DNA of 36,077 nt from an uncultured Melioribacter sp. (GCA_964510325.1 CAZEBL010000001.1:1-36077); one strand, 5' to 3'. Shown: positions 1,002 through 15,311, counted from the first letter of the stretch. Program-made: numbers and translations. The notes: generated from the sequence alone by a model not told the origin.

Positions 1002-4000
1002 CTATTCAAATGCTTTCTTAATAATTTCATCTTGAGATGCCTGGAATTTCTTAGAAGAACCACTTGCAGGACTCGGACTTTCCTGACGTCCAACGAACTC
1101 TAATTTCAATTTATCGGGAATTATTTTAATCAACCTTGGAAAAAGAAAATTCCACGCCCCCATGTTTTGCGGTTCTTCCTGGACCCACTTTACTGTTTTT
1201 GCATTTGGATATGTTTGTAATAATTTACTCATTAGTTCGGAATTAAATGGATAGTACTGTTCAATCCTAATTATTGCTTTATTATCAATTTTATTTATTA
1301 CTCTAAAGTTGTTCAGTTCATAATATATTTTCCCGCTTGTAAGGATCACATTTGTAACTTTAGATTTATCCATAGTAATATCATCAATAATTTCTTCAAA
1401 CTTTCCTTCAGTAAAATCATTTATAGGCGACCTTGCAGCGGGTAATCGTAATAAACTCTTAGGTGTTAACACAACAAGTGGTTTTTCATAAGCTCCGTTT
1501 ACTTCGGATAACTTTTTATGCATCTGTCTTCTGAGTAAATGAAAATACTGTGCAGGTGTAGTTGGGTTGCATACATACATATTATTTTCTGCACATAGTA
1601 TAAGAAATCTTTCTAACCGTGCACTACTATGTTCCGGACCCTGTCCCTCTTGTCCGTGAGGAAGTAACATTACAAGATTATTCGGTAGTTGCCATTTAGT
1701 GTAAGAGCTTACTATAAAATTATCTATGATAACCTGTGCACTATTAGCAAAATCGCCGAATTGTGCTTCCCAGATTACTAAAGCGAGCGGATCAGAAATG
1801 CTGTAACCGAATTCAAATCCCAATACTGCAGCTTCTGAAAGTAAGCTATCGAGCGCTTCAATTTTTGCCTGACCTTCTTCAATAAAATTATGAGGCAGAA
1901 CTTCTTCCTCGGTATTCATGTCTGTAAATATCAAATGCCTTTGACTGAATGTACCGCGAGCACTATCCTGACCGCTAAGTCTAACCGGGCGTTTTTCAAT
2001 TAAAAGAGTACCGAATGCAAGAGCTTCTGCAAAAGCCCAATCAATTTGTGTATTACCTGTTAATAATTCTTTTCGCTTGGCAATATGCTTACTTAGTTTA
2101 GGATTTAGTGAAAAACTATGAGGGAATTGAATAATCCCTTTTACAACTTTCTTAAGCTCATCAATAGATACTTTAGTTTCTGCTTTTCGATCGAAATTGT
2201 CATAATAATCTGTGGAATATGCCAAAGGTCTATCCGGTTTAAATTTTTCTGATTTCTTTTTAGTATCCTTAAGTGCTTTTTCAAGTAAATCGTATATATA
2301 ATTATCAAGAGAATCTATTTCAGCTTTATCCATAATCTTAGATTTAACAAGTCTCTCCTGGTAAATCTCTTTTACTGATGGATGCTCTTTGATTTTTTTG
2401 TACATAAGTGGTTGAGTATAAACCGGATCATCACCTTCGTTATGCCCATGCCTTCTATATCCAAATAGATCAATTACCACATCCTTGTTAAATTTTTGGC
2501 GGTATTCAAATGCAAGCTGTGTAACCCATAGTGATGCTTCGGGGTCATCACCATTAACATGAAAGATTGGCGACTGAACCATTTTAGCAACATCGGTTGC
2601 ATAAGGTGAGGAACGTGCATCTTCAGGTGGTGTTGTAAATCCAATCTGATTATTTACAATAATGTGAATCGTTCCACCGGTGCTATAACCTTTTAATTGT
2701 GATAGGTTAAGAGTTTCTGCAACAACACCCTGTCCAGCAAATGCAGCATCCCCGTGAATAAGAACAGGAACATATTGATTCTTCTCAGTGTCGTTATTTC
2801 TTGTTTGTTTTGCACGGATTATTCCTTCAACTACAGGATTAACCCACTCGAGATGGGAAGGATTAGAGGCAACAGAAACTTTAATTTCATTACCACTGAA
2901 GGTTTTGTAATTACCGCTTGCACCGAGATGATATTTAACATCACCCGTTCCTTGCGGGCTTTCGGGATCCATTTCATCTTCAAATTCAGAAAATATATTC
3001 GTATAACTTTTACCGATGATATTTGATAATACATTCAATCTGCCACGATGAGCCATTCCTAAAAACACTTCTTTAACATTCTGCTCGCTTGCTAAATTTA
3101 ATAAGTAGTCCAGCACAGGTATTAAAGTCTCTGAACCTTCAAGAGAAAAACGTTTATGACCAATAAATTTTGTATGAAGAAAATGTTCAAATGCTTCAGC
3201 TACAATCAGTTTTTGCATTATTCTTTTTTTGGTCTCATTACTATATCCCGGTTTATTTCTAATCGGTTCCATTCTTTGTTGAAGCCAGAGTTTTTCTTCG
3301 GGATTCTGTATGTGCATATACTCCACACCAATCTTTTCGCAATAAGTCTGATGAAGAACATCCAGAATCTGTCGTAAAGTACCTGTCTGCATTCCCTGTA
3401 AATTACCGGTGATGAAATGACGATCATAATCCCAGATTGTAAATCCATGGTTTGCAGGATCCAATTCCTGGTGAAATGATTTAGGTGGACTGAGAGGATT
3501 CAAATCTGCAATTAAATGCCCGCGTACTCTGAACATGTTGATAAGTAATACAATTCGTGCTTGCTTCTCAATCTCTTCAATGTTGTCGATTTTTGAAAAT
3601 CTTTTTGAAAGCGTATCGAGGTCCCATCCAACTGCTTTCTGCGGAATTTTTAGATCTTCAAATAATTTACTATAGAAATTATTTTCACCAAGTAAAAGGT
3701 TATCAATTGTTGCAAGAAATGCGCCCGATTCTGCACCTTGAATTATTCGGTGATCATAAGTACTGGTAATATTCATAACCTTACCGATACCAAGTGATGC
3801 TAATGCAGAAGGATGCATCGCTTTGAATTCCGCCGGGTAATCAATTGCACCAACTGCTATGATGCAACCTTGACCGGTCATTAATCTGGGTGTTGAAGAA
3901 ATTGTACCGATACCACCAGGATTAGTTAAAGTAATAGTGGAGTTTTGAAAATCTGCCGGTTCTAATCTACCACTCTTTGCTTTGTCGATTAATTCATCAT

Positions 4001-4649
4001 AGGCATAAAGGAACTGATCAAAGTCCATCGTCTCGGCTCGTTTAATATTAGGAACTATTAAGGAACGCGTTCCGTCTTTTCGTTCAATATCAACAGCAAT
4101 ACCAAGATTTATATATGGTTTCTTAATTAAACTAGATTTTCCTTTAACAACTCCGAAAGAATTATTCATATTAGGAAATTCTTTAAGAGCTTGAACAAGC
4201 GAGTATGCAATTAAATGTGTGAAAGAAATTTTTCTTCCACCAGTTCTCTTTAAGTGTTGATTGATAATAATTCTATTTTCTTCAAGAAGCTTTACGGAAA
4301 TTGTCCGCAATGATGTTGCAGTCGGTATTGTTAAACTACCGGTCATGTTCTCTATTATTTTTGCGCCAACGCCCACAATAGGGATAATCTCATCATCGGG
4401 GGATATATCAAACAAATCCGATACAACGGGAGAAGTGATTTCTTTTTTGGTTGAAGCGGATTTTTCCGGTTTAATATGGTTATCCGATTTATTGCTGCCG
4501 GTTAATTGGTCGAAATAATTTTTCCAGTAATCTGAAACTGAATTATGATCTTCCAGATATTTTTCGAGTAAGTCGGATACAAATCCAAAGTTATACCCGA
4601 AGTGGTTAAATAATTCTTTGTGATATTTAGTGATGTCCATATTTCTCAT
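1002..4649 (-). CDS. kgd: 2-oxoglutarate dehydrogenase E1 component fused to an N-terminal E2-like acyltransferase domain (Kgd/OdhA architecture), 1215 aa
   Basis: The length is about 280 aa longer than a classical SucA. Residues ~95-325 carry a 2-oxoacid dehydrogenase acyltransferase core (TLTNPGGIGT, STYDHRIIQGAESGAFL). The rest is a typical E1o: GMAHRGRLNVL, HGDAAFAGQGVV, GYRRHGHNEGDDP, LLPHGQEGQGPEHSS. No lipoyl domain is recognisable. Confidence 0.9.
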   Translation of the reverse strand: MRNMDITKYHKELFNHFGYNFGFVSDLLEKYLEDHNSVSDYWKNYFDQLTGSNKSDNHIKPEKSASTKKEITSPVVSDLFDISPDDEIIPIVGVGAKIIENMTGSLTIPTATSLRTISVKLLEENRIIINQHLKRTGGRKISFTHLIAYSLVQALKEFPNMNNSFGVVKGKSSLIKKPYINLGIAVDIERKDGTRSLIVPNIKRAETMDFDQFLYAYDELIDKAKSGRLEPADFQNSTITLTNPGGIGTISSTPRLMTGQGCIIAVGAIDYPAEFKAMHPSALASLGIGKVMNITSTYDHRIIQGAESGAFLATIDNLLLGENNFYSKLFEDLKIPQKAVGWDLDTLSKRFSKIDNIEEIEKQARIVLLINMFRVRGHLIADLNPLSPPKSFHQELDPANHGFTIWDYDRHFITGNLQGMQTGTLRQILDVLHQTYCEKIGVEYMHIQNPEEKLWLQQRMEPIRNKPGYSNETKKRIMQKLIVAEAFEHFLHTKFIGHKRFSLEGSETLIPVLDYLLNLASEQNVKEVFLGMAHRGRLNVLSNIIGKSYTNIFSEFEDEMDPESPQGTGDVKYHLGASGNYKTFSGNEIKVSVASNPSHLEWVNPVVEGIIRAKQTRNNDTEKNQYVPVLIHGDAAFAGQGVVAETLNLSQLKGYSTGGTIHIIVNNQIGFTTPPEDARSSPYATDVAKMVQSPIFHVNGDDPEASLWVTQLAFEYRQKFNKDVVIDLFGYRRHGHNEGDDPVYTQPLMYKKIKEHPSVKEIYQERLVKSKIMDKAEIDSLDNYIYDLLEKALKDTKKKSEKFKPDRPLAYSTDYYDNFDRKAETKVSIDELKKVVKGIIQFPHSFSLNPKLSKHIAKRKELLTGNTQIDWAFAEALAFGTLLIEKRPVRLSGQDSARGTFSQRHLIFTDMNTEEEVLPHNFIEEGQAKIEALDSLLSEAAVLGFEFGYSISDPLALVIWEAQFGDFANSAQVIIDNFIVSSYTKWQLPNNLVMLLPHGQEGQGPEHSSARLERFLILCAENNMYVCNPTTPAQYFHLLRRQMHKKLSEVNGAYEKPLVVLTPKSLLRLPAARSPINDFTEGKFEEIIDDITMDKSKVTNVILTSGKIYYELNNFRVINKIDNKAIIRIEQYYPFNSELMSKLLQTYPNAKTVKWVQEEPQNMGAWNFLFPRLIKIIPDKLKLEFVGRQESPSPASGSSKKFQASQDEIIKKAFE

Positions 4650-4839: not shown

Positions 4840-5007
4840 ATGAAAGCAGAGTGCCCGGTTTGTGGTGCTATGATTGATTTACCTGAAGGTACTGTTGTAG
4901 GAGAACTAATAGAGTGTCCCGATTGCGGAACAGAGTTAGAAGTTGAATCTCTTAATCCTCCTACAGTAAAAGAAGCTCCACAAGAAGAAGAAGACTGGGG
5001 TGAATAG
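4840..5007 (+). CDS. lysW: LysW amino-group carrier protein (alpha-aminoadipate/glutamate carrier), 55 aa; absent from the supplied ORF track
   Basis: My own translation is MKAECPVCGAMIDLPEGTVVGELIECPDCGTELEVESLNPPTVKEAPQEEEDWGE. It has two CxxC pairs (zinc ribbon) and an acidic tail ending EDWGE, the hallmark LysW C-terminus. A GGAG sits ~11 nt upstream of the ATG. The gene lies directly upstream of lysX/Y/Z/J homologues. Confidence 0.9.
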   Translation: MKAECPVCGAMIDLPEGTVVGELIECPDCGTELEVESLNPPTVKEAPQEEEDWGE

Positions 5008-6165
5008 TTGATCTGGGTTTTAGATTCAACATTAAGAGAAGGCGAACAAACCCCGGGAGTCTACTTCGATAAGCACATTAAACTTGCAATTGCATCTCTA
5101 CTGGATGAAATCGGTGTTAATATAATTGAAGCCGGTCATCCCATGGTTACCCCGGAAATCCATGCAGCAGTAAAATCAATCGCACAAAAAGGATTTAAAT
5201 CAATTGTTGGCGCTCATTCCCGGTCATTAAAGAATGATGTAGATCTCGCTTTAGAATGTGGTGTCGGTTTTATCGGAATATTCTATTGTGTCTCCGATGA
5301 AAGACTGGCTAATGTTTTCAAAAAGGATCTTGATGATGCAATAAAGCAGATTACCGATGTAATTAAATATGCAAAAAATATAAAACCCGATCTGTTAATT
5401 AGATATACACCTGAAGATACTGTCCGTTCACAATTCGAAAATGTTGTTAAAGCTGCCGCTGCTGCTGTTGAAGCCGGAGCTGATATTATTAGTGTAGCAG
5501 ATACTACCGGTTATATGGTTCCGGGAACCGACCGGAGTATGTATGATTATATTTCGAAACTTAAAGATGATTTGGCACAACGTAAGCTATTCCCTAAGAT
5601 CGCAGTTCACTGTCATAACGATAGAGGTTTTGCACTTGCAAATGCGCTTGATGCTTACCGTGCCGGTGTTGATATTATTGATGCCGCCGCATTAGGACTT
5701 GGTGAAAGAGCCGGAATAGTTGATCTTGCCCAATTATTAGTTACACTAACAGTTGATTATAATGAGAACCGATGGAACCTTAAAAAGATTACTGAGCTAT
5801 ATGATCTGGTAAGTAAACATTCGGGGATCCCGATACCGGCTAATTATCCAATAACAGGAAAAAATGCTTTTACACATTGTGCCGGCGTTCATACTCATGC
5901 TGCTTCAATTAATCCAATGCACTACGAAAGTCTGCATCCTGATATCTTAGGACGAGCAAGAAGTTTTGCACTCGATCATATGTCGGGAATTGCATCTCTT
6001 AGATATGCACTCAATTTAATTGATGAAAATAGTTTAGATGATGATCATCAACAATCTGTTCTTGCCGAAGTAAAAGCAGTTGGACAGCGGGGAAGAACTG
6101 TTGACCTTGAAGAATTGAAACATATCGTTGATGCTGTTAAGCACCACAAGACCTACGCTAAATAG
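5008..6165 (+). CDS. Homocitrate synthase-like (HMGL/DRE-TIM family, short form without the LeuA regulatory domain)
   Basis: The N-terminus reads LDSTLREGEQTPGV. Metal-site motifs of the IPMS/HCS family are present: HCHNDRGFALANAL and HCAGVHTH. The 385-aa length resembles Thermus/archaeal HCS. The TTG start abuts the lysW stop (TAG 5005-5007). Specificity (homocitrate versus citramalate/IPM) cannot be proven from sequence. Confidence 0.7.
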   Translation: MIWVLDSTLREGEQTPGVYFDKHIKLAIASLLDEIGVNIIEAGHPMVTPEIHAAVKSIAQKGFKSIVGAHSRSLKNDVDLALECGVGFIGIFYCVSDERLANVFKKDLDDAIKQITDVIKYAKNIKPDLLIRYTPEDTVRSQFENVVKAAAAAVEAGADIISVADTTGYMVPGTDRSMYDYISKLKDDLAQRKLFPKIAVHCHNDRGFALANALDAYRAGVDIIDAAALGLGERAGIVDLAQLLVTLTVDYNENRWNLKKITELYDLVSKHSGIPIPANYPITGKNAFTHCAGVHTHAASINPMHYESLHPDILGRARSFALDHMSGIASLRYALNLIDENSLDDDHQQSVLAEVKAVGQRGRTVDLEELKHIVDAVKHHKTYAK

Positions 6166-6199: not shown

Positions 6200-7045
6200 A
6201 TGAAAATAGGATTACTTCATTCATTGCTACGTAAAGATGAAAAATTTTTGATGGATGAATTTGCTAAAATCAAAGGTGTTGAACTCGTTCTTATCGATGA
6301 CCGTGAAATTACATTTAATTTAGGGAAGGATAAGTTTGATGTTGATGTGCTTGTTGAGAGATGTATAAATCACTCCCGCGCTTTGCACGGATTAAAACTT
6401 TTCGAAGCAGCCGGAGTAAGATGTGTTAACTCTTACAACGTTGCGACAATCTGCGGTGATAAACTCCTAACGTCAGTAGCCCTTGCGGAAAATAAAGTTC
6501 CTCAACCAGAAGTAAGAGTTGCATTTACAGAAGAATCGGCTCTTAAAGCAATTGAAGAGATGGGTTACCCGGTTGTTCTTAAACCGGCAGTTGGATCTTG
6601 GGGAAGACTTCTATCAAAAATTAACGACAAAGATGCAGCCGAAGCTATTCTTGAGCATAAAACGGTCCTTGGTTCATATCATCATTCCATTTTTTATATT
6701 CAGAAATATGTAGAGAAGAAAGGGAAGGATATCAGAAGTTTTGTTGTAGGTGATAAGTGTATTGCTGCTATTTATAGAACTTCTCCTCACTGGATTACAA
6801 ATACTGCACGCGGCGGTGTTGCTACTAACTGTCCTATAACAGAAGAGTTGAATGATATTTCCGTGCGTGCTGCTAAAGCTGTTGGTGGAGGAATAGTTGC
6901 TATAGATGTTTTTGAAACTGAGAAGGGATTAATGGTTAACGAAGTAAATTATACAATGGAGTATAAGAACAGTATTACTACAACCGGCGTAAATATTCCC
7001 CAGAAAATGGTTGAATATATATTGCAAGTGGCTGAAGGTAAGTAA
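6200..7045 (+). CDS. lysX: RimK-family ATP-grasp ligase, LysX/ArgX type (LysW--alpha-aminoadipate or --glutamate ligase)
   Basis: Long blocks look, from my memory, near-identical in pattern to Thermus LysX (not verifiable here): [72 protein letters not shown] lies upstream. Confidence 0.88.
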
Positions 7046-8091
7046 TGGAAAAAATAAAAGTATCAATTGTTGGCGGATCGGGGTATACAGGCGGGGAATT
7101 GCTTCGTTTGCTTCTTTTCCATCCTTATGTAGAAGTTGTTGAAGTTACTTCTGAAAGTTATACGGGAAAATTTGTTCATAAAATCCATCCTAACTTAAGA
7201 AAATCTACAACGCTAAAATTTATTTCTGCATCCGAGTTACAACCGTGTGATCTTCTCTTTTTATGTCTTCCTCATAATAGTTCGCAAAATCAAATTGATA
7301 GATTCAAAAATTTAGCTCCGAGGATTATAGATCTTAGTGCAGACTTCAGATTAAAAAGTGAATCGGAATATGAAAAATGGTATGGACATAAACATGCAAG
7401 ACCGGAATTGTTCAATGAATTTGTGTACGGGATTCCAGAACTGCACCGCGAAGAAATGAAAAATGCAAAATACATTTCAAGTGCAGGTTGTAATGCAACT
7501 GCAAGTATTCTTGGTCTCTATCCGCTCTTTAAAAATGATCTTGTTGAAGAAGATAGAACAGTAATAGAAGTAAAAGCTGGAAGCAGCGAAGGGGGCAATA
7601 AAGTTAATGAAGGTTCACATCATCCTGAGCGTGCCGGTGTAGTCAGATCTTACATGCCTACGCAGCATAGACACACTGTGGAAATATTACAGGAACTTTC
7701 ATTTGGTAAAAAAATAAATGTCCATTTTTCTGCTACTGCTATTGATATTGTCCGCGGTTTACTTGCAACATGCCATGTTTTCTTAAAGAAGGATCTTCAG
7801 GAAAAAGAGATCTGGAAAATTTATCGTGAAGCTTATGGTAATGAACCTTTTATTAGAATTGTAAAAGAAAGCGAAGGAATATACCGATTCCCGGAACCGA
7901 AATTATTAAGCGGTACAAATTATTGCGATATCGGTTTTAAGAAAGATGAATTTTCAAATCGGCTTGTTGTAATTAGTGCAATTGATAATTTAATGAAAGG
8001 TGCTGCTGGTCAGGCACTTCAGGCGTTTAATTTAATGTATGGATTTGATGAAAGAACCGGACTCGAATTCCCGGGATTACATCCAATTTAA
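7045..8091 (+). CDS. lysY: LysW-aminoadipyl/glutamyl-phosphate reductase (ArgC/LysY family)
   Basis: It has an N-terminal Rossmann motif (VSIVGGSGYTGGELLRLL), an active-site Cys context (SSAGCNATA) and a C-terminal DNLMKGAAGQALQ. The start overlaps the lysX stop (TAATG). Confidence 0.88.
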   Translation: MEKIKVSIVGGSGYTGGELLRLLLFHPYVEVVEVTSESYTGKFVHKIHPNLRKSTTLKFISASELQPCDLLFLCLPHNSSQNQIDRFKNLAPRIIDLSADFRLKSESEYEKWYGHKHARPELFNEFVYGIPELHREEMKNAKYISSAGCNATASILGLYPLFKNDLVEEDRTVIEVKAGSSEGGNKVNEGSHHPERAGVVRSYMPTQHRHTVEILQELSFGKKINVHFSATAIDIVRGLLATCHVFLKKDLQEKEIWKIYREAYGNEPFIRIVKESEGIYRFPEPKLLSGTNYCDIGFKKDEFSNRLVVISAIDNLMKGAAGQALQAFNLMYGFDERTGLEFPGLHPI

Positions 8092-8145: not shown

Positions 8146-8790
8146 ATGTGCCGACTACTATATGTTGACTCGAAAACCGAGTTTGATACTTCTGATTACT
8201 TAATTAGGTTTTCGGAGATTTCTAAAAATAGCCGTGAGTTTCAGGGACATGGATGGGGTTGCGCTTATTTCCAGAATGGTAAATGGAATTTTTATAAAAA
8301 TGTTAAACCTATCTGGGAAGACGACCTCTCCACATTCGGTAATTCAAAACGATTGATAGCACATGCCAGAAGTGCATTTAAGGATGAAGGAATTGTTGTT
8401 GAAAACAACATGCCTTTCTATGATGATAAATACATTTTTGTTTTTAATGGAGAACTGCGTGGTGTAAAAATTAAAGAAGAAGGAAGAATTGGTGCAGAAA
8501 AAATTTTTAATTATTTAAAAAGATTTGATGACCAAGGAATTGGTGAAGGGATTAAAAAGGGGACTGAAATAATTAAAAAAAGATCGGCTTATATAAGAGC
8601 AATGAATTTGATTATTGCAAATGATAAAGCAGCTTATATTTATTCTCACTTCAATGAAGATCCGGAATATTTTACAATGCATATCAAAAAATCGGATAAT
8701 GTATTTGTTGTCTGTTCCGATCCGTTCATTGGTGAACTTAATTGGAATCCAATTGAAAATAATTCGTTACTGGAGATTAAATGTATCTAA
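8146..8790 (+). CDS. Class-II glutamine amidotransferase-like Ntn (N-terminal Cys) amidohydrolase, YafJ/EgtC-like, stand-alone 214 aa
   Basis: It starts MCRLL, so Cys2 is the putative nucleophile after Met removal. Blocks follow the GATase class-II pattern: GHGWG, AHARSAF..VENNMPF, FNGEL. There is no fused synthase domain. The 3' end overlaps lysZ by 10 nt, so it is part of the operon. Confidence 0.65.
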   Translation: MCRLLYVDSKTEFDTSDYLIRFSEISKNSREFQGHGWGCAYFQNGKWNFYKNVKPIWEDDLSTFGNSKRLIAHARSAFKDEGIVVENNMPFYDDKYIFVFNGELRGVKIKEEGRIGAEKIFNYLKRFDDQGIGEGIKKGTEIIKKRSAYIRAMNLIIANDKAAYIYSHFNEDPEYFTMHIKKSDNVFVVCSDPFIGELNWNPIENNSLLEIKCI

Positions 8791-9572
8791 TTAAAATCGG
8801 CGGCGGTAAAGGAATTAATCTAAAAGGAGTAATTTCGGATCTTGCTACGTTGAATGAAAAAATAATTATTGTTCACGGTGCAAATGCCGCAAGAGATGAA
8901 TTAGCCAATAAAATTGGTTTTCATAAGAAAGTTGTAACTTCACTCTCAGGTTACGATTCGGTTCTTAGCGATGAAACTACTATTGATCTTATGATGATGA
9001 CGTATGCCGGATTAAAGAATAAACGTATTGTTGAACTCTGTCAACAGCACGGTATCAATGCAGTTGGTTTAACCGGACTCGATGGAAAAACTATTCAAGG
9101 AAAACGTAATAGTGGAATAAAGGTAAGAGAAGGGGGTAAAACACTTTTACTAAGAGACTTTTCCGGTAAACCGAAATCAATTAATAAAGATCTTCTTAAT
9201 CTGCTGCTCGATAACAGTTATACCCCTGTATTAAGTGTTCCGCTCATAGACGAAAATAATTTTGCAATTAATTCAGAAAATGACGACATACTTGCATTAC
9301 TTCAATCTGAATTTAAAGCAGACAAAGTAATTTCTCTTATAGAAGAACAAGGACTTCTATTGGATAAGAACGATCCTTCATCACTTGTTTCTAATCTATC
9401 GAAAGAAGAACTTGAAGCAATGGAACAGAAAGTTGATGGGAGAATGAAAAGAAAAATCCTTGCATTAAGAAAATTATTTGAATCGGGTGATACTACAGTA
9501 ATTTTAGGCGATGGTAGAACCGAACACCCGATTATTGATGCACTAAATGGAAAGGGGACCATAATAAAATGA
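8781..9572 (+). CDS. lysZ: LysW-aminoadipate/glutamate kinase (ArgB/LysZ amino-acid kinase family)
   Basis: The amino-acid kinase fold pattern is present: IKIGGGKG...IIIVHGANAARDE, GLTGLDG, INSENDDILA. The 263-aa size and operon position fit. Confidence 0.85.
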   Translation: MYLIKIGGGKGINLKGVISDLATLNEKIIIVHGANAARDELANKIGFHKKVVTSLSGYDSVLSDETTIDLMMMTYAGLKNKRIVELCQQHGINAVGLTGLDGKTIQGKRNSGIKVREGGKTLLLRDFSGKPKSINKDLLNLLLDNSYTPVLSVPLIDENNFAINSENDDILALLQSEFKADKVISLIEEQGLLLDKNDPSSLVSNLSKEELEAMEQKVDGRMKRKILALRKLFESGDTTVILGDGRTEHPIIDALNGKGTIIK

Positions 9573-10723
9573 AAGATTACAAATCATTAATTGAACAATA
9601 CGAAGTTGATGTTTACCCTCGACGTGATGTTGTACTTGTTAAAGGTAAAGATGCTCATGTGTGGGATGACAAAGGGAATGAATACATCGATATGGCTGCT
9701 GGAATTTCTGTTGCTAATATTGGCCATGCTAACAATTATGTAGTAGAAGCTATTTCCAGGCAATCTGAAACACTTATTACTTGTCCAAATACTTTTTATA
9801 ATGATGCAAAAGCAATCTTTTTAGAAAAGTTATTTAGTGTTGTTCCTAAGAATCTTACACGTGCATTTTTAACTAACAGCGGAACCGAAGCAATTGAAGC
9901 GGCAATAAAATTTGCACGCTTGAATACAAAGAAAACTAAAATTATTGCTGCAATGAAAGGTTTCCATGGAAGAACATACGGCGCATTAAGTGCAACTTAC
10001 AAGAAAGAATATCGTGATGGTTTTGAACCTCTTGTACCAGGATTCGATTTTGTTCCATATAATAATTTCGAAAAAATTGTTCAATTAGCAGATGATGATA
10101 CTGCTGCAATTATTCTTGAACCAATTCAAGGTGAAGGTGGAATTAATATTGGTCAAATTGAATTTTTTCAGAAAGTAAGGCAACTCTGTAATGAAAAAAA
10201 CATTCTTCTTATAATTGATGAAATTCAAACCGGTTTCTGCCGAACGGGCAAATTATTTGCAATTGAACATCTTGGTATTGAAGCTGATATGATTACGCTT
10301 GCTAAATCAATTGCTGGCGGTTTTCCGATGGGCGCACTTTTATGTTCCGATAAAATTACTGTCGAAAAAAGTAAGCACGGTTCCACATTTGGCGGTAATC
10401 CGTTGGCATGTGCCGCCGGAACTGCATCAATCGATTTTATGATTGAAACAAAATTATGGGAACAAGCTGAGGCAAAAGGTAAGTATTTCAAAGCTAAACT
10501 GGAAAACCTTTCACTTTCTAAAGTCCGCGAAATCAGAATAGTCGGATTAATGATTGGAATCGAATTAAAAGAAAAAGTTCAGCCGTATCTGGAAGAATTG
10601 TTGAAAAGAAAAATTGTTGTATTACCGGCTGGAACTACTGTACTTAGAATGCTTCCGCCTCTTGTAATAAGCTACGAGGACTTAGATAAAGTAGCAAAGG
10701 AATTAGAAGACCTATTAAAGTAA
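9569..10723 (+). CDS. lysJ: Class-III PLP aminotransferase (ArgD/LysJ type)
   Basis: Motifs: SGTEAIEAAIKFAR, GFHGRTYGALSAT, LIIDEIQTGFCRTGKLFA, TLAKSIAGGFP (PLP lysine context), STFGGNPLACAA. The start overlaps the lysZ stop (ATGA). Confidence 0.88.
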   Translation: MKDYKSLIEQYEVDVYPRRDVVLVKGKDAHVWDDKGNEYIDMAAGISVANIGHANNYVVEAISRQSETLITCPNTFYNDAKAIFLEKLFSVVPKNLTRAFLTNSGTEAIEAAIKFARLNTKKTKIIAAMKGFHGRTYGALSATYKKEYRDGFEPLVPGFDFVPYNNFEKIVQLADDDTAAIILEPIQGEGGINIGQIEFFQKVRQLCNEKNILLIIDEIQTGFCRTGKLFAIEHLGIEADMITLAKSIAGGFPMGALLCSDKITVEKSKHGSTFGGNPLACAAGTASIDFMIETKLWEQAEAKGKYFKAKLENLSLSKVREIRIVGLMIGIELKEKVQPYLEELLKRKIVVLPAGTTVLRMLPPLVISYEDLDKVAKELEDLLK

Positions 10724-10835
10724 TGTAAAATTAGGGCTAAATACTGCTAAATTAATTTCTTATTGCTAACAAGATTCTTTGACTTTATAACCCCTTTTGG
10801 ATTATTTTTCAATCCAAAATTATTCCGTTATTGAT

Positions 10836-11204
10836 ATGATTCTTAATTACATACCTATTTTTTTAGTCCTATTAGTTGCAGCTGTAATTGCCGGGGCTAT
10901 TGTATATTCTTCAAAGTTATTTGGTCCTTACAGACCTAATAAAATAAAGCAGCTTTCATATGAAAGCGGTAAAAATCCCGTTGGTACAACTCACGAGAGA
11001 ATTTCAATTAAATATTACCTGGTTGCAATGCTCTTTATCATTTTTGATATCGAAGTAATTTATGTTTACCCGTGGGCAGTGCAATTCAAATCCCTCTATG
11101 CCGAATTTGGAATTTTTGCATTTATGCCGATGTTTATATTTTTAGTTGTACTTGAACTTGGATTCCTATACATCTTCGCGAAAGGAGGGCTAAAATGGGA
11201 TTAG
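10836..11204 (+). CDS. nuoA: NADH-quinone oxidoreductase subunit A
   Basis: Three TM segments and the NuoA motifs YESGKNP and [15 protein letters not shown] chose the in-frame ATG at 10836 (122 aa, typical NuoA size) over the ORF-track TTG at 10797. The start is uncertain. Confidence 0.85.
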
Positions 11205-11713
11205 AAGCCAAATTACAACAGGATGGATTTGTAACCACCACAATAGATGCAATTATTGCATGGGCTCGTAAAAGTTCTGTATGGCCTATGCCGATGGGAA
11301 TTTCATGCTGTGCAATAGAAATGATTGCTGCTGCAGATCCTAAATACGATCTTGCTCGTTTCGGATCCGAAGTTATGCGTTTTACTCCGCGTCAGTGCGA
11401 TCTTATGATTGTTGCCGGAACAGTTACTTATAAAATGGCTCAGGTTGTTAGAAGAATTTACGACCAGATGCCTGAACCTAAATGGGTAATTGCTATGGGT
11501 GCATGTACATCCTCAGGCGGAATGTATCGTTCATATTCTGTTGTTCAAGGTATTGATCAATTTCTACCGGTTGACGTTTATACTGCCGGTTGTCCTCCAC
11601 GCCCGGAAAACTTGATTAATGCTGTAATGACAATTCAAAAGAAAATATCCAAAACCAGGGCAAGGGATTTTCAGGATCAACCAATGATTAATCCTGTTAC
11701 AACAAATAACTGA
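11195..11713 (+). CDS. nuoB: NADH-quinone oxidoreductase subunit B
   Basis: Motifs: [24 protein letters not shown] (N2 cluster ligands). Confidence 0.93.
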
Positions 11714-11714
11714 T

Positions 11715-12206
11715 ATGGAAATGAAAGAACTTATTGTAGAAAAATTAAAAAAGAATTTTGGTGAATTTATTCAGGAAATCTCTGATTTCAGAAACGATCT
11801 TTCAATTACCATTGCCAGCAGCAAAATAGTTGAAGTTGCAAAATTCTTAAAAGATGATTCCGAACTTGAATTTGTGATGTGCAAAGATGTTACCGCTATT
11901 GACTGGGCTACACGTAAAAACAGATTTACAGTTGTCTATCATATCTATTCATTTAAGAACAATTATTTTTTACGCTTAAAATCTAATATTGTTGAAAAGA
12001 CGCCGGCTATTGATTCTGTTACATCCATATGGCCAAGTGCTAACTGGTATGAAAGAGAAACATTCGATATGTATGGAATTATTTTTAACAATCATCCCGA
12101 TTTAAGAAGAATGTATATGCCGGAAGGATTTCAGTATCATGCATTAAGAAAAGAATTTCCGGTCTTAGGCATACCCGGATCATTACCATTACCCGAAAAA
12201 ATCTAA
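11715..12206 (+). CDS. nuoC: NADH-quinone oxidoreductase subunit C
   Basis: Motifs: NWYERETFDMYGIIFNNHPDLRR. It is a separate gene, not fused to nuoD. Confidence 0.9.
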   Translation: MEMKELIVEKLKKNFGEFIQEISDFRNDLSITIASSKIVEVAKFLKDDSELEFVMCKDVTAIDWATRKNRFTVVYHIYSFKNNYFLRLKSNIVEKTPAIDSVTSIWPSANWYERETFDMYGIIFNNHPDLRRMYMPEGFQYHALRKEFPVLGIPGSLPLPEKI

Positions 12207-12208
12207 TT

Positions 12209-13459
12209 ATGGAACAGAGATCAGCTATATATTCTGACGAAAAACTTCTCAAGAAACTTCTTGAAGATAAAGATATTACTATTGAAGATGCTCTTGAAAA
12301 TGAGATGGTTATTAACATGGGTCCTCAGCACCCGGCTACTCATGGAGTATTGAGATTAGTTCTAAGATTGGATGGAGAGACAGTTCTTTCTGCAGTTCCT
12401 GAACTCGGTTATCTTCATCGCGGTTATGAAAAGATGGCTGAGGATATGAGTTATATAGAGTTTATTCCACATACAGACCGTCTTGATTACACAGCTACAA
12501 TGTGTAATAACGTTGCCTATGTTCTTGCCGTTGAAAAGCTATTGGGCATTGAAGCTCCAAAGCGTGCTCAATATATCCGGATGATGATTGCAGAATTATC
12601 ACGTCTTGCTGCTCACATGGTTGCAATCGGTACTTATGCAATGGACGTTGGTGCAGTTACAATGGTAATGTGGACTTTCAGAGAACGTGAAAAGATTCAG
12701 GAAATATTCGACCGTCTTGCCGGTGCAAGATTTACAACAAGTTATACAAGAATTGGCGGTGTTGCTTCGGATGCAGATTCCGTAACACTTAAAATGGTTC
12801 GCGATTTTCTGGATCAGTTCCATAACGCACTGGATGAAATGGATAAACTTTTACTAGGTAATAAAATTTTTATTGATCGATTAGATGGTATTGGCGTTCT
12901 TTCTAAAGATGATGCAATTGCTCTTGGTGTAACCGGTCCTAATCTTAGAGCTTCTGGAGTTGCTTATGATGTAAGAAGAGCAAAACCGTACTTGTTCTAC
13001 AATGAAATGGATTTCAATATACCCACTTATACTAACGGGGATTGTTTAGCAAGATACTGGCTGCGAGGTGATGAGGTAAGAGAAAGTGTTAAAATCCTCT
13101 ACCAGATATTGGATAAAATGCCTCAAGGTGAAGTTTTAGCAAACGAACCGAAACACACGCTTGCTCATAAATCTGAGATATATACTAAGATGGAAGAACT
13201 GATTCACGATTTTATGATTATTAATTATGGGATCAATCCACCAGTTGGTGATGTGTTCTTCTCTGCTGAAAATCCGAAAGGGGAATTAGGATTTTATATT
13301 GTAAGTAACGGTTCAGGTCATCCCTGGAAAATGAAAATTAGATCACCTTCATTCTGTAATCTTCAAGCCATTGCTCAACTCTGTAAAGGAGCAATGATTT
13401 CTGATGTAATTGCAATAATAGGAAGTTTAGACCCTGTAATGGGAGAGGCAGATAAATAA
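12209..13459 (+). CDS. nuoD: NADH-quinone oxidoreductase subunit D
   Basis: Motifs: NMGPQHPATHGVLRL, GYLHRGYEK, RIRSPSF-like (KIRSPSFCNLQ). Confidence 0.93.
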   Translation: MEQRSAIYSDEKLLKKLLEDKDITIEDALENEMVINMGPQHPATHGVLRLVLRLDGETVLSAVPELGYLHRGYEKMAEDMSYIEFIPHTDRLDYTATMCNNVAYVLAVEKLLGIEAPKRAQYIRMMIAELSRLAAHMVAIGTYAMDVGAVTMVMWTFREREKIQEIFDRLAGARFTTSYTRIGGVASDADSVTLKMVRDFLDQFHNALDEMDKLLLGNKIFIDRLDGIGVLSKDDAIALGVTGPNLRASGVAYDVRRAKPYLFYNEMDFNIPTYTNGDCLARYWLRGDEVRESVKILYQILDKMPQGEVLANEPKHTLAHKSEIYTKMEELIHDFMIINYGINPPVGDVFFSAENPKGELGFYIVSNGSGHPWKMKIRSPSFCNLQAIAQLCKGAMISDVIAIIGSLDPVMGEADK

Positions 13460-13515
13460 TTTATAATCCCGATCTTGATCATAGTCTTGATCCTGATCTA
13501 AAATGAATATGAACT

Positions 13516-13989
13516 ATGTCATTTAAATTTACCGAAGAAAATTTAGCACGAATTGAGAAAGCCCGTAAGAAATATCCTACTGCATTAGCTGCTGTAATGG
13601 ATACAGTTTACATAGCTCAGGAACAGAATGGATATATAAGCACAGAGGTAATGGAAGAAATTGCTAATGTACTTGGAATAGATAAAGTAAATGTACTTAG
13701 TGTTGTAACATTCTATACAATGTATCATACCAAACCGATGGGTAAATATCATGTTCAGGTCTGCACTAATGTTTCATGTATGCTTCGGGGTTCTTATGAA
13801 ATTTGGGATAGAGTAAGAGAAAAATTAGGTATTGATAATATGCAGGTAAGCGCAGATGGTAAATTTTCTCTTGAAGAAGTTGAATGTATGGGTGCATGCG
13901 GATATGCTCCAATGATTGCAATAAATGAATATTACTATGAAAATCTAACAAAAGAAAAAGTTGAAGAAATTCTGGAATCCTTAAAATAA
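13516..13989 (+). CDS. nuoE: NADH-quinone oxidoreductase subunit E (2Fe-2S)
   Basis: Thioredoxin-like 2Fe-2S pattern: VCTNVSC ... ECMGACGYAPM. Confidence 0.9.
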   Translation: MSFKFTEENLARIEKARKKYPTALAAVMDTVYIAQEQNGYISTEVMEEIANVLGIDKVNVLSVVTFYTMYHTKPMGKYHVQVCTNVSCMLRGSYEIWDRVREKLGIDNMQVSADGKFSLEEVECMGACGYAPMIAINEYYYENLTKEKVEEILESLK

Positions 13990-15311
13990 TGGAAAGAATT
14001 GTTCTACCCGGAATACAAAATCTAAACGAAATAGAAGTATATCTATCCAACGGCGGATTTGAAGCTGCAAAAAAAGCATTCAGCCAAACTCCCGATGATA
14101 TTATTGATCAGGTTAAAAAATCTGGACTTAGAGGTAGAGGAGGAGCTGCATTTCTAACTGGATTGAAATGGAGCTTTATGCCTAAAACAACCAATCTACC
14201 CAAATACCTTTGTATCAATGGGGATGAAAGTGAACCGGGATCCTTTAAGGATAGACAGGTTTTTGAAGATAATCCTTTTCAGCTGATTGAAGGTGCTATA
14301 ATCACATGTTATGCAATTGACGCTAAGGTTGCGTATTTATATATACGTGGTGAATATCATAAGTGGATAAAGCTGATGCAGAAAGCCATAGATACATCGT
14401 ATGAGCGCGGATATCTTGGCGAAAAGATGAAATCTACGTTTGGAATTGACTTTAGTTGCGATTTATTTATTCATAAAGGTGCCGGTGCTTATATATGCGG
14501 GGAAGAATCTTCCCTTATGAATTCTATCGAAGGACATCGTGGTTATCCACGTGTTAAACCGCCTTTCCCGGCTCAAAAAGGTTTATGGGGATGCCCGACA
14601 ACAATTAACAACGTTGAAACAATAACAAATGTCCCTCCGATAATTTCCAAAGGATGGGAATGGTTCTGCAAAATCGGTGCACCAAAACATCCCGGCACAT
14701 TGTTATACGGAATAAGCGGACACGTTAATAAGCCGGGTGTCTATGAATATCCAACAGGTATGCTTTTAACAGAATTAATTTATGATGTAGCCGGCGGAGT
14801 TCCGGGAAATAAAAAAATAAAATGTGTTATACCGGGCGGTTCTTCTATGCCTCCATTAAGAGGTGATAAGTTGGAAGGCGTGCGAATGGATGCAGAGTCA
14901 TTAAAAGAAGCCGGATCCGCTGTTGGTACTGCCGGAATTATGGTTATGGATGAAGATACTAACTTATTAAAAGTGTTAATTCGTATTGCACATTTTTATC
15001 ATCACGAAAGCTGCGGTCAGTGTACACCATGCCGTGAGGGAACCGGATGGATGGAAAAAACGCTTCACAGAATTTTGGAAGGTCATGGCACATCAAAAGA
15101 TCTTGATCTGCTTATTAGTGTTGCAAACAATATAGAAGGAAACACAATCTGTGCATTAGGCGATGCTGCTGCCTGGCCAGTTAAATTTATGATTGAAAGA
15201 TTCAGAGATGAATTTGAAACCTATGTTAAGAAAGATGTTTCTATACCGGTCCCTAATAAAGTACACTCAATGAGGCAAACCGCCGTACCACTCGCAGATT
15301 TACATAAATAA
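13989..15311 (+). CDS. nuoF: NADH-quinone oxidoreductase subunit F (FMN/NADH-binding, 4Fe-4S)
   Basis: Motifs: GLRGRGGAAF, GAGAYICGEESSL, ESCGQCTPCREG. The start overlaps the nuoE stop (TAATG). Confidence 0.93.
   Translation: MERIVLPGIQNLNEIEVYLSNGGFEAAKKAFSQTPDDIIDQVKKSGLRGRGGAAFLTGLKWSFMPKTTNLPKYLCINGDESEPGSFKDRQVFEDNPFQLIEGAIITCYAIDAKVAYLYIRGEYHKWIKLMQKAIDTSYERGYLGEKMKSTFGIDFSCDLFIHKGAGAYICGEESSLMNSIEGHRGYPRVKPPFPAQKGLWGCPTTINNVETITNVPPIISKGWEWFCKIGAPKHPGTLLYGISGHVNKPGVYEYPTGMLLTELIYDVAGGVPGNKKIKCVIPGGSSMPPLRGDKLEGVRMDAESLKEAGSAVGTAGIMVMDEDTNLLKVLIRIAHFYHHESCGQCTPCREGTGWMEKTLHRILEGHGTSKDLDLLISVANNIEGNTICALGDAAAWPVKFMIERFRDEFETYVKKDVSIPVPNKVHSMRQTAVPLADLHK

What the first reader, a model, noticed from the sequence alone, without database searches (positions are those of the whole stretch)
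8146..8790. Ntn (Cys2) amidohydrolase-like gene embedded in the LysW operon where LysK is missing: candidate new carrier-release enzyme
Seen in sequence:
- A 214-aa stand-alone class-II GATase-like protein (MCRLL..., GHGWG, AHARSAF..NNMPF, FNGEL) sits between lysY and lysZ.
- It overlaps lysZ by 10 nt, so it is translationally embedded in the operon.
- The operon has lysW, lysX, lysY, lysZ and lysJ, but no M20-family deacylase (LysK/ArgE) anywhere in the window.

Established knowledge:
- The last LysW-pathway step hydrolyses an N-substituted gamma-glutamyl amide. This is the bond between the LysW C-terminal Glu gamma-carboxyl and the alpha-amino group of Lys or Orn.
- Class-II GATase domains hydrolyse the gamma-amide of Gln via an N-terminal Cys.
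- The family member EgtC cleaves an N-substituted gamma-glutamyl amide.

Inference: this protein may be a non-orthologous replacement for LysK that releases the product from the carrier.

Several canonical residues are substituted (NxHPF to NNMPF, HNG to FNG), consistent with a changed substrate.
Basis: partly seen in the sequence, partly recalled or inferred. Interest (0 to 1): 0.8.

Follow-up and report, generated by a model that had tools for sequence, protein, structure and literature searches.

The report
LysW carrier amidase replacing LysK
A small cysteine amidase gene is built into every copy of one widespread type of bacterial lysine-synthesis operon, in the slot where the usual metal-dependent release enzyme sits elsewhere, so it most likely frees lysine from its carrier protein by a different chemistry.

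Summary
Window 8146-8790 (+) encodes a 214-aa stand-alone Ntn (Cys2) amidohydrolase with a class-II glutamine-amidotransferase fold. It lies between lysY and lysZ, overlaps lysZ by 10 nt, and no M20 deacylase is in the window.

- **Linkage.** All 155 of 167 related loci with readable flanks place the gene in a LysW operon. There are two layouts: lysY-Ntn-lysZ, and lysZ-lysJ-Ntn as the last gene.
- **Same slot as lysK.** That last position is where M20 lysK sits in Pyrococcus, Gemmatimonadota and Anaerolineales operons.
- **No LysK nearby.** None of 9,532 ORFs around the Ntn genes resembles LysK.
- **Altered active site.** Cys2, Arg75 and Asn101-Gly102 are kept. The Asp that binds the free alpha-amino group of glutamine is an invariant Gly, as expected for a peptide-linked glutamyl substrate.
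- **Gln-ended carriers.** About 22% of LysW genes in these operons end in Gln instead of the essential Glu (0 of 115 in LysK lineages). Such carriers work only if an amidase acts on that residue.

Untested: absence of LysK elsewhere in these genomes, and the enzyme activity itself. I found no paper linking LysW to a glutamine amidotransferase, Ntn hydrolase or EgtC.

The parts
4840..5007 (+). lysW, the amino-group carrier protein. It has a zinc ribbon and the acidic tail ...EEEDWGE, ending in Glu in this window.
   Evidence: Pfam Zn_ribbon_LysW 64.7 bits. NCBIfam TIGR01206 lysW 73.3 bits, above the cutoff of 53.2.
5008..6165 (+). Homocitrate-synthase-like gene (HMGL-like plus HCS_D2 domains). 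It marks the operon as alpha-aminoadipate lysine synthesis.
   Evidence: Pfam HMGL-like 201 bits and HCS_D2 53 bits. The best NCBIfam match is homocitrate synthase TIGR02146 at 339 bits, below its equivalog cutoff of 413.55.
6200..7045 (+). lysX, the ATP-grasp ligase that joins alpha-aminoadipate to the gamma-carboxyl of the LysW C-terminal Glu.
   Evidence: NCBIfam TIGR02144 LysX 355.7 bits, above the cutoff of 275.6.
7045..8091 (+). lysY, the reductase of LysW-aminoadipyl phosphate (ArgC family).
   Evidence: NCBIfam TIGR01850 argC 406 bits, above the cutoff of 233.6.
8146..8790 (+). The finding: a stand-alone Ntn (Cys2) amidohydrolase of the GATase_4/EgtC-like fold, proposed to be a LysW gamma-glutamyl amidase. 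Key residues are Cys2, Arg75, Asn101-Gly102, and Gly116 in place of the canonical Asp.
   Evidence: for family, fold and residues. for operon linkage.
8781..9572 (+). lysZ, the [LysW]-aminoadipate kinase. Its start overlaps the Ntn gene by 10 nt.
   Evidence: NCBIfam NF010659 244.7 bits, above the cutoff of 223. The same 10-nt overlap is seen in 39 of 78 type-1 loci.
9569..10723 (+). lysJ, the LysW-aminoadipate semialdehyde aminotransferase. It overlaps lysZ by 4 nt.
   Evidence: NCBIfam LysJ_Th_th 449.7 bits, below the equivalog cutoff of 700. The argD subfamily model scores 434 bits, above its cutoff of 410.

Best explanation
The gene encodes a stand-alone N-terminal-nucleophile cysteine amidohydrolase that is a fixed part of a LysW-dependent alpha-aminoadipate lysine operon. 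Proposed mechanism (inferred):
1. The initiator Met is removed.
2. The free Cys1 attacks the gamma-amide carbonyl of the C-terminal residue of LysW.
3. Arg75 holds that residue's free alpha-carboxylate, and Asn101/Gly102 form the oxyanion hole.
4. Gly116, in place of the usual Asp, leaves room for the LysW peptide chain attached to the alpha-nitrogen.
5. Lysine leaves, a LysW-thioester intermediate forms, and water regenerates LysW-Glu.

The protein would thus do the job of the M20 metallohydrolase LysK by different chemistry. The same reaction on a LysW that is genetically Gln-terminated would release ammonia and unmask the carrier.

Shown here: family, fold, residue pattern, operon linkage, positional equivalence to lysK, and Gln-terminated carriers. 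Inferred: the substrate and the reaction.
For: 1. Ntn class-II fold and catalytic residues:
 - GATase_4 26.4 bits.
 - AF2 model pLDDT 96.9.
 - Foldseek best match EgtC, TM-score 0.78, E 1e-12.
 - Among 59 sequences down to 27% identity, R75, N101, G113 and G116 are invariant and C2 and G102 are at least 90% conserved.
2. Operon linkage. Of 167 loci from GTDB genomes and metagenomes, 79 read lysY-Ntn-lysZ and 76 read lysZ-lysJ-Ntn. The other 12 contigs are too short to judge. None lies elsewhere.
3. Lysine-pathway context. Type-2 clusters also carry homocitrate synthase and both homoaconitase subunits, so the Ntn gene is the only unassigned gene in a lysine cluster.
4. Positional equivalence. 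In Pyrococcus furiosus, a Gemmatimonadota MAG and an Anaerolineales MAG, an M20 gene directly follows lysJ and there is no Ntn gene.
5. No LysK-like or ArgE-like ORF among 9,532 ORFs of the Ntn loci. The controls were recovered at E <= 1e-140.
6. Active-site change. GlmS Asp123, YafJ GETDSEK and 3mdn GSTDSE all align to the invariant Gly116 in G-x-I-G-A-E-K. In class-II amidotransferases that Asp binds the free alpha-amino group of glutamine (established knowledge).
7. Gln-terminated carriers.
 - LysW ends in Gln in 20 of 91 distinct Ntn-type sequences, against 0 of 115 Thermus-like and Thermococcus-like LysW (Fisher p = 2e-8).
 - At least 15 independent E/Q switches map onto a LysY tree.
8. 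Literature. The Caldithrix abyssi genome paper lists a LysWXZYJ+Hcs locus and says the lysine pathway may involve non-orthologous displacement (PMC5317091).
Against: - Absence of LysK or ArgE from the rest of these genomes was not tested, because the tools reach only 10 kb around a gene.
- M. roseus has a separate arg locus (MROS_0916-0919). It also has M20 proteins: MROS_0251, longer than 450 aa, and a PepD-like MROS_2228.
- In Thermus itself lysK is unlinked to the lys cluster (own knowledge), so an unlinked LysK is a realistic possibility.
- The Ntn product MROS_0163 was not listed in the M. roseus proteome tables although its neighbours were.
- The E/Q statistic has no phylogenetic correction, and the control set covers few lineages.
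- The Gln-terminated carriers show that an amidase acts on LysW. They do not show that it releases lysine.
- No biochemical data exist.
Confidence: 0.62

Rival explanations
1. Carrier activation or repair only. The enzyme deamidates LysW whose C-terminal residue is Gln. That Gln may be genetically encoded, or formed when ammonia attacks the LysX acyl-phosphate intermediate. Lysine release is done by an unlinked M20 LysK/ArgE.
For: Gln-terminated LysW genes occur only with the Ntn gene. The class-II fold is a glutaminase fold. M. roseus has a separate arg locus and M20 proteins.
Against: About 78% of Ntn-type operons encode Glu-terminated LysW yet keep the gene without exception. In type-2 operons the gene sits exactly where lysK sits in other lineages. 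No LysK-like gene lies near any of the 167 loci.
Confidence: 0.2
2. Editing hydrolase. The enzyme removes wrongly loaded amino acids, such as glutamate in LysW-gamma-Glu, so that the carrier is kept for lysine synthesis.
For: It has the same operon linkage and the same active-site logic as the main explanation. M. roseus has a separate arginine pathway, where mischarging with Glu would be wasteful.
Against: Accessory proofreading genes are rarely retained in every operon across several phyla and two gene orders. This reading leaves the release step without an enzyme in the cluster. L071 carries a second lysX paralogue together with the Ntn gene, which suggests loading of a second substrate is wanted there.
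Confidence: 0.06
3. Small-molecule gamma-glutamyl amidase or free glutaminase. This would be an EgtC-like or YafJ-like enzyme unrelated to LysW, or one supplying ammonia or glutamate to the pathway.
For: Weak sequence similarity to EgtC. Public records annotate the family as class II glutamine amidotransferase.
Against: The Asp that binds the free alpha-amine of glutamine or gamma-glutamyl compounds is an invariant Gly. The EgtC model score is far below its cutoff, 47.6 against 218.65. No step of the pathway needs ammonia, because lysJ is present. No ergothioneine genes are nearby.
Confidence: 0.05

Closest known systems
EgtC (gamma-glutamyl-hercynylcysteine sulfoxide hydrolase; PDB 4ZFJ/4ZFK/4ZFL; NCBIfam TIGR03442)
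   Same: Stand-alone protein of about 215-235 aa with an Ntn class-II fold and an N-terminal Met-Cys-Arg. It is the best structural match (TM-score 0.78) and the best PDB sequence match. It hydrolyses an N-substituted gamma-glutamyl amide rather than feeding a synthase domain (own knowledge; the PDB entry titles describe an Ntn hydrolase with its natural substrate).
   Different: Only 17% identity. The TIGR03442 score is 47.6 against a cutoff of 218.65. The genomic context is a lysine operon rather than egtABDE. The proposed substrate is a protein C-terminus whose alpha-nitrogen is in peptide linkage. EgtC's residue at the Gly116 position could not be read, because the alignments stop before it.
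LysK, the [LysW]-lysine hydrolase (M20 metallopeptidase; PDB 5XOY)
   Same: The proposed reaction and pathway step are the same. The operon slot after lysJ is the same. The two genes were never seen together in the operons examined.
   Different: No homology: LysK is a zinc/cobalt-type M20 fold of about 330-370 aa, while this protein is a 214-aa cysteine Ntn fold. The chemistry would differ too, with a covalent thioester intermediate on the carrier instead of metal-activated water.
YafJ / PA1307 / SPO2029 stand-alone GATase_4 proteins (PDB 1TE5, 3MDN)
   Same: Same Pfam family. hhalign against E. coli YafJ gives probability 98.5% over 208 columns. They share the MC(R/E)L start, the DGWG motif, the Arg and the Asn-Gly.
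   Different: These proteins keep the canonical Asp (GETDSEK, GSTDSE) where this family has an invariant Gly. They are not linked to LysW, and their function is unknown.
Glutaminase domains of GlmS, PurF and related class-II amidotransferases
   Same: Same fold and the same catalytic Cys1, Arg73, and Asn98-Gly99 equivalents.
   Different: This protein has no synthase domain. Asp123 is replaced by Gly116, HNG by FNG, and N-x-H-P by N-N-M-P.

Membership tests
Class-II (Ntn) glutamine amidotransferase superfamily / Pfam GATase_4 | Cys immediately after the initiator Met, acting as N-terminal nucleophile | tested here: met
   The protein starts MCR and no upstream start codon is possible. M1 and C2 are conserved in at least 90% of 59 sequences.
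Class-II (Ntn) glutamine amidotransferase superfamily / Pfam GATase_4 | Profile match above the curated threshold | tested here: met
   PF13230 scores 26.4 bits against a gathering score of 23, which is marginal, and covers residues 1-114 only. hhalign to YafJ gives 98.5% probability.
Class-II (Ntn) glutamine amidotransferase superfamily / Pfam GATase_4 | Four-layer alpha-beta-beta-alpha Ntn fold | tested here: met
   The AF2 model has pLDDT 96.9. Foldseek finds EgtC, PA1307, SPO2029, PurF and GlmS, all at probability 1.00.
Class-II (Ntn) glutamine amidotransferase superfamily / Pfam GATase_4 | Arg that binds the substrate alpha-carboxylate, and the Asn-Gly oxyanion hole | tested here: met
   R75 and N101 are invariant and G102 is at least 90% conserved. 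They align to GlmS R73 and N98-G99.
Class-II (Ntn) glutamine amidotransferase superfamily / Pfam GATase_4 | Asp that binds the free alpha-amino group of glutamine (GlmS D123) | tested here: not met
   An invariant Gly116 aligns to GlmS D123, to the Asp of YafJ GETDSEK and to the Asp of 3mdn GSTDSE.
EgtC (TIGR03442) | Score above the equivalog cutoff, and ergothioneine gene context | tested here: not met
   The score is 47.6 bits against a cutoff of 218.65. The neighbours are lys genes in all evaluable loci.
LysK / [LysW]-lysine hydrolase (M20) | M20 metallopeptidase homology | tested here: not met
   Neither the LysK profile nor phmmer matches this ORF or any other ORF in the Ntn-bearing loci, window included. 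The fold is Ntn.
LysK / [LysW]-lysine hydrolase (M20) | Gene placed with lysZ-lysJ in LysW operons | tested here: met
   76 type-2 loci read lysZ-lysJ-Ntn. L173, L174 and L176 read lysZ-lysJ-M20.
LysK / [LysW]-lysine hydrolase (M20) | Hydrolysis of LysW-gamma-Lys | not testable with these tools
   This needs an enzyme assay.
LysW (amino-group carrier protein) lysine pathway operon | LysW with zinc ribbon and EDWGE tail, together with lysX, lysZ, lysY and lysJ | tested here: met
   LysW, LysX, LysZ and LysY score above their NCBIfam cutoffs, and LysJ scores above the argD subfamily cutoff.

The most novel reading that the evidence does not exclude
A LysW-specific cysteine Ntn amidase defines a second, widespread version of the carrier-protein lysine pathway, found in Ignavibacteriota, Calditrichota, KSB1, Binatia and others. 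In it, one enzyme both releases lysine in every cycle and unmasks carriers that are genetically Gln-terminated ('pro-LysW'). A further possibility is that the thioester intermediate passes the carrier directly to a new alpha-aminoadipate molecule, a transamidation that would save ATP. I rate that extension as unlikely (about 5%) because lysX is always retained.
Probability: 0.5. Interest if true: 0.8.

Novelty: new variant of a known kind. Interest (0 to 1): 0.72.

Why it matters
It would fill a gap in lysine biosynthesis for hundreds of bacterial species in several phyla, where pathway annotation tools would otherwise call the route incomplete. It would be the first release enzyme for an amino-group carrier protein that is not an M20 metallohydrolase, and a clear case of in-place non-orthologous gene displacement. 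It would also give a first substrate to a branch of the poorly understood stand-alone GATase_4 proteins. The Gln-terminated LysW genes suggest a carrier made in a masked form, which has not been described for this pathway. All of this can be tested directly with purified proteins.

Tried and rejected
- **Genome scan with the full alignment.** A 15-sequence alignment worked.
- **E. coli ArgE as the only M20 probe.** It missed the Pyrococcus LysK. I replaced it with a profile of three operon-encoded LysK proteins plus ArgE.
- **Whole-genome check for LysK.** This is not possible with 10-kb flanks. The M. roseus proteome tables gave only partial information.
- **EgtC residue at position 116.** HMM alignments to EgtC stop before the motif, and the structure paper is not in the library.
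- **Promoter and terminator scan of the operon.** Uninformative: fewer sigma-70-like sites than in shuffled sequence.
- **Overall charge of the family.** Unremarkable, median pI 7.8.
- **Literature searches.** No paper holds LysW together with glutamine amidotransferase, or together with EgtC, and none holds 'amino group carrier protein' with 'Ntn hydrolase'. GapMind 2026 mentions LysW only for a LysZ enzyme and does not mention this family.
- **Rejected idea: an ammonia-supplying amidotransferase subunit.** There is no synthase partner, lysJ is present, and the glutamine alpha-amine site is lost.

Full report
**What is there.** The window carries a compact + strand operon:

| Gene | Coordinates |
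|---|---|
| lysW | 4840-5007 |
| homocitrate-synthase-like gene | 5008-6165 |
| lysX | 6200-7045 |
| lysY | 7045-8091 |
| the 214-aa ORF of the finding | 8146-8790 |
| lysZ | 8781-9572 |
| lysJ | 9569-10723 |

LysW, LysX, LysZ and LysY exceed their NCBIfam cutoffs, and LysJ exceeds the argD subfamily cutoff. The ORF starts ATG-TGC with no possible upstream start codon. It overlaps lysZ by 10 nt. No M20 deacylase is in the 36-kb window. The closest relatives come from Melioribacter and Ignavibacteriales MAGs, so the window is from an Ignavibacteriota genome.

**Family and fold.**
- Pfam GATase_4 is met marginally, at 26.4 bits against 23.
- The only NCBIfam hit is EgtC, far below its cutoff at 47.6 against 218.65.
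- By sequence, the best PDB match for the single protein is EgtC at E = 0.011. For the family profile it is 3mdn at 1e-9, then EgtC at 1e-6.
- An AlphaFold2 model built on 59 homologues has pLDDT 96.9 and pTM 0.92.
- Foldseek places it in the Ntn class-II fold. EgtC is best (TM-score 0.78, 17% identity), followed by PA1307, SPO2029, PurF and GlmS.
- The family is compact: 450 clusters at 50% identity with E <= 1e-3, and 217 with E <= 1e-10.

**Active site.** The alignment covers 59 members down to 27% identity. W57, R75, P90, N101, G113 and G116 are invariant. M1, C2, R3 and G102 are at least 90% conserved. Profile alignments place R75 on GlmS R73 and N101-G102 on GlmS N98-G99.

The invariant G116, in the motif G-x-I-G-A-E-K, falls on GlmS D123. 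It also falls on the Asp of YafJ GETDSEK and the Asp of 3mdn GSTDSE. From established knowledge of class-II amidotransferases, that Asp binds the free alpha-amino group of glutamine.

The family therefore keeps the nucleophile, the oxyanion hole and the alpha-carboxylate clamp, and has lost the alpha-amine clamp. That is the pattern expected for a glutamyl residue with a free alpha-carboxylate and an acylated alpha-nitrogen. The C-terminal Glu of LysW is such a residue. This step is inference.

**Genomic linkage.** The 80 best loci come from Ignavibacteriota, Calditrichota, KSB1, Binatia, Rhodothermaceae and MAGs labelled Delta- or Gammaproteobacteria. All read lysW-(HCS)-lysX-lysY-Ntn-lysZ-lysJ, with unrelated flanks outside Ignavibacteriota.

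A second subfamily is 30-38% identical and carries a DGDxQxDGWG insertion. I traced it in metagenome contigs. There the gene is always the last one: lysW-lysX-lysY-HCS-(hacA-hacB)-lysZ-lysJ-Ntn.

Counts over the 167 loci:
- 79 are type 1 and 76 are type 2.
- 12 contigs are too short to judge.
- None lies elsewhere.

In type 1 the Ntn/lysZ overlap is 10 nt in 39 of 78 loci, 4 nt in 15 and 1 nt in 10. Two different gene orders with an unbroken association across several phyla is strong evidence that the protein works in this pathway.

**Relation to LysK.** I looked up three LysW operons from other lineages:
- Pyrococcus furiosus: HCS-hacA-hacB-lysW-X-Y-Z-J-M20.
- A Gemmatimonadota MAG: lysW-X-X-Y-hisS-Z-J-M20.
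- An Anaerolineales MAG: lysW-X-Y-Z-J-M20.

In each, an M20 peptidase gene directly follows lysJ and no GATase gene is present. That is the same slot the Ntn gene holds in type-2 operons.

A profile built from these three LysK proteins plus E. coli ArgE recovered the controls at E <= 1e-140. It found nothing at E <= 0.1 among 9,532 ORFs of the Ntn-bearing loci. At operon level the two genes therefore replace each other. Each Ntn-type cluster encodes every LysW-dependent step except release, plus this one unassigned hydrolase.

**An unexpected second line of evidence.** In 99 Ntn-type operons the LysW tail is EEDWGE in 76 and EEDWGQ in 21, which is 20 of 91 distinct sequences. The Gln-ended carriers occur with both Ntn subfamilies and in several lineages. 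On a LysY neighbour-joining tree they need at least 15 independent E/Q changes.

None of 115 LysW sequences related to Thermus or Thermococcus LysW ends in Gln. Those are LysK lineages. The Fisher test gives p = 2e-8 without phylogenetic correction. All three LysW proteins in the PDB end in EDWGE.

LysX ligates the substrate to the gamma-carboxyl of that terminal Glu (established knowledge). A Gln-ended LysW is therefore inert unless its gamma-amide is hydrolysed, and that is the textbook reaction of this fold. Frequent, apparently neutral E/Q switching only where the Ntn gene is present indicates that the enzyme works on the gamma-amide of the LysW C-terminal residue. LysW-Gln is simply the smallest such amide, and LysW-gamma-Lys is the pathway's own.

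**What remains open.** I could not test whether a LysK or ArgE gene lies elsewhere in these genomes.
- M. roseus has a separate arginine locus. It also has at least two M20 proteins: MROS_0251, longer than 450 aa, and a PepD-like MROS_2228.
- In its proteome tables LysJ, LysZ, LysY, LysX and HCS were detected, but the Ntn product MROS_0163 was not listed.
- The main rival is therefore that the enzyme only activates or repairs the carrier while an unlinked M20 releases lysine.
- Against that rival, 78% of the operons encode Glu-ended LysW yet always keep the gene, and the gene sits in the lysK slot.
- The Caldithrix abyssi genome paper noted that its lysine pathway may involve non-orthologous displacement or be incomplete (PMC5317091).

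**Prior knowledge.** No paper in the library holds LysW together with glutamine amidotransferase, or together with EgtC. None holds 'amino group carrier protein' together with 'Ntn hydrolase'. GapMind 2026 does not mention the family. Public records name the protein only 'class II glutamine amidotransferase' or 'hypothetical protein'.

**Verdict.** It is still unproven. I rate it a new variant of a known pathway. It uses a known catalytic fold on a new kind of substrate, and it is of high interest to specialists in amino-acid biosynthesis and carrier-protein enzymology.

Noticed in passing
Related loci, e.g. L021 6477-6659, L149 2964-3137, L161 4179-4355, L074, L075 (the window's own lysW, 4840-5007, ends in Glu): About one fifth of the LysW genes in Ntn-type operons encode a C-terminal Gln (EEDWGQ) instead of the Glu that LysX needs. 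None of 115 LysW sequences from LysK lineages does. At least 15 independent E/Q switches are needed on a LysY tree.
   Followed up: yes
window 1002-4649 (-): A 1,215-aa 2-oxoglutarate dehydrogenase E1 gene that also carries a 2-oxoacid_dh (E2-type acyltransferase) domain. It lies divergently upstream of lysW. The domain annotation comes from the syntenic homologue in L001. 2-Oxoglutarate is also the substrate of homocitrate synthase.
   Followed up: partly
window 10797-15311 (+): A nuoA-nuoF-like complex I gene string follows lysJ directly. The same synteny is kept in most Ignavibacteriota loci (gene clusters c3, c1, c0, c2, c4, c6) but not in other phyla.
   Followed up: partly
L071 3299-4486: A second lysX paralogue lies between lysY and the Ntn gene. 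The LysK-type Gemmatimonadota operon L174 also has two lysX genes. This suggests some of these operons load two substrates (Lys and Arg/Orn), so the release enzyme would need to accept both.
   Followed up: no
L160 604-1269 and 3026-3691: Two Ntn-family paralogues lie on one short metagenome contig, one directly after lysJ and one 1.7 kb downstream.
   Followed up: no
L080 10001-12222; also L064 and L059: In a KSB1 MAG and two uncultured-bacterium contigs the unit Ntn-lysZ-lysJ stands without lysW-lysX-lysY upstream. The operon can split, but the Ntn gene stays with lysZ and lysJ.
   Followed up: no
L054 (JAPPOH010000014.1): The record is labelled 'Candidatus Woesearchaeota archaeon' but carries a typical bacterial type-1 operon 60% identical to the window protein. 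This is probably a binning or labelling error. Here extra genes, including one unassigned family (c32) also seen upstream of lysW in L005, lie between HCS and lysX.
   Followed up: no
Melioribacter roseus MROS_0161-0166 (supplement of PMC5492636): Proteomics detected LysJ, LysZ, LysY, LysX and HCS but did not list MROS_0163, the Ntn homologue by position. Two of the stored files are truncated, so this is weak evidence.
   Followed up: partly
window 15370-17076 (-): A 568-aa secreted repeat protein whose C-terminus resembles a type IX secretion sorting domain. I judged this from the sequence alone and ran no profile search. It fits an FCB-group (Ignavibacteriota) origin of the window.
   Followed up: no
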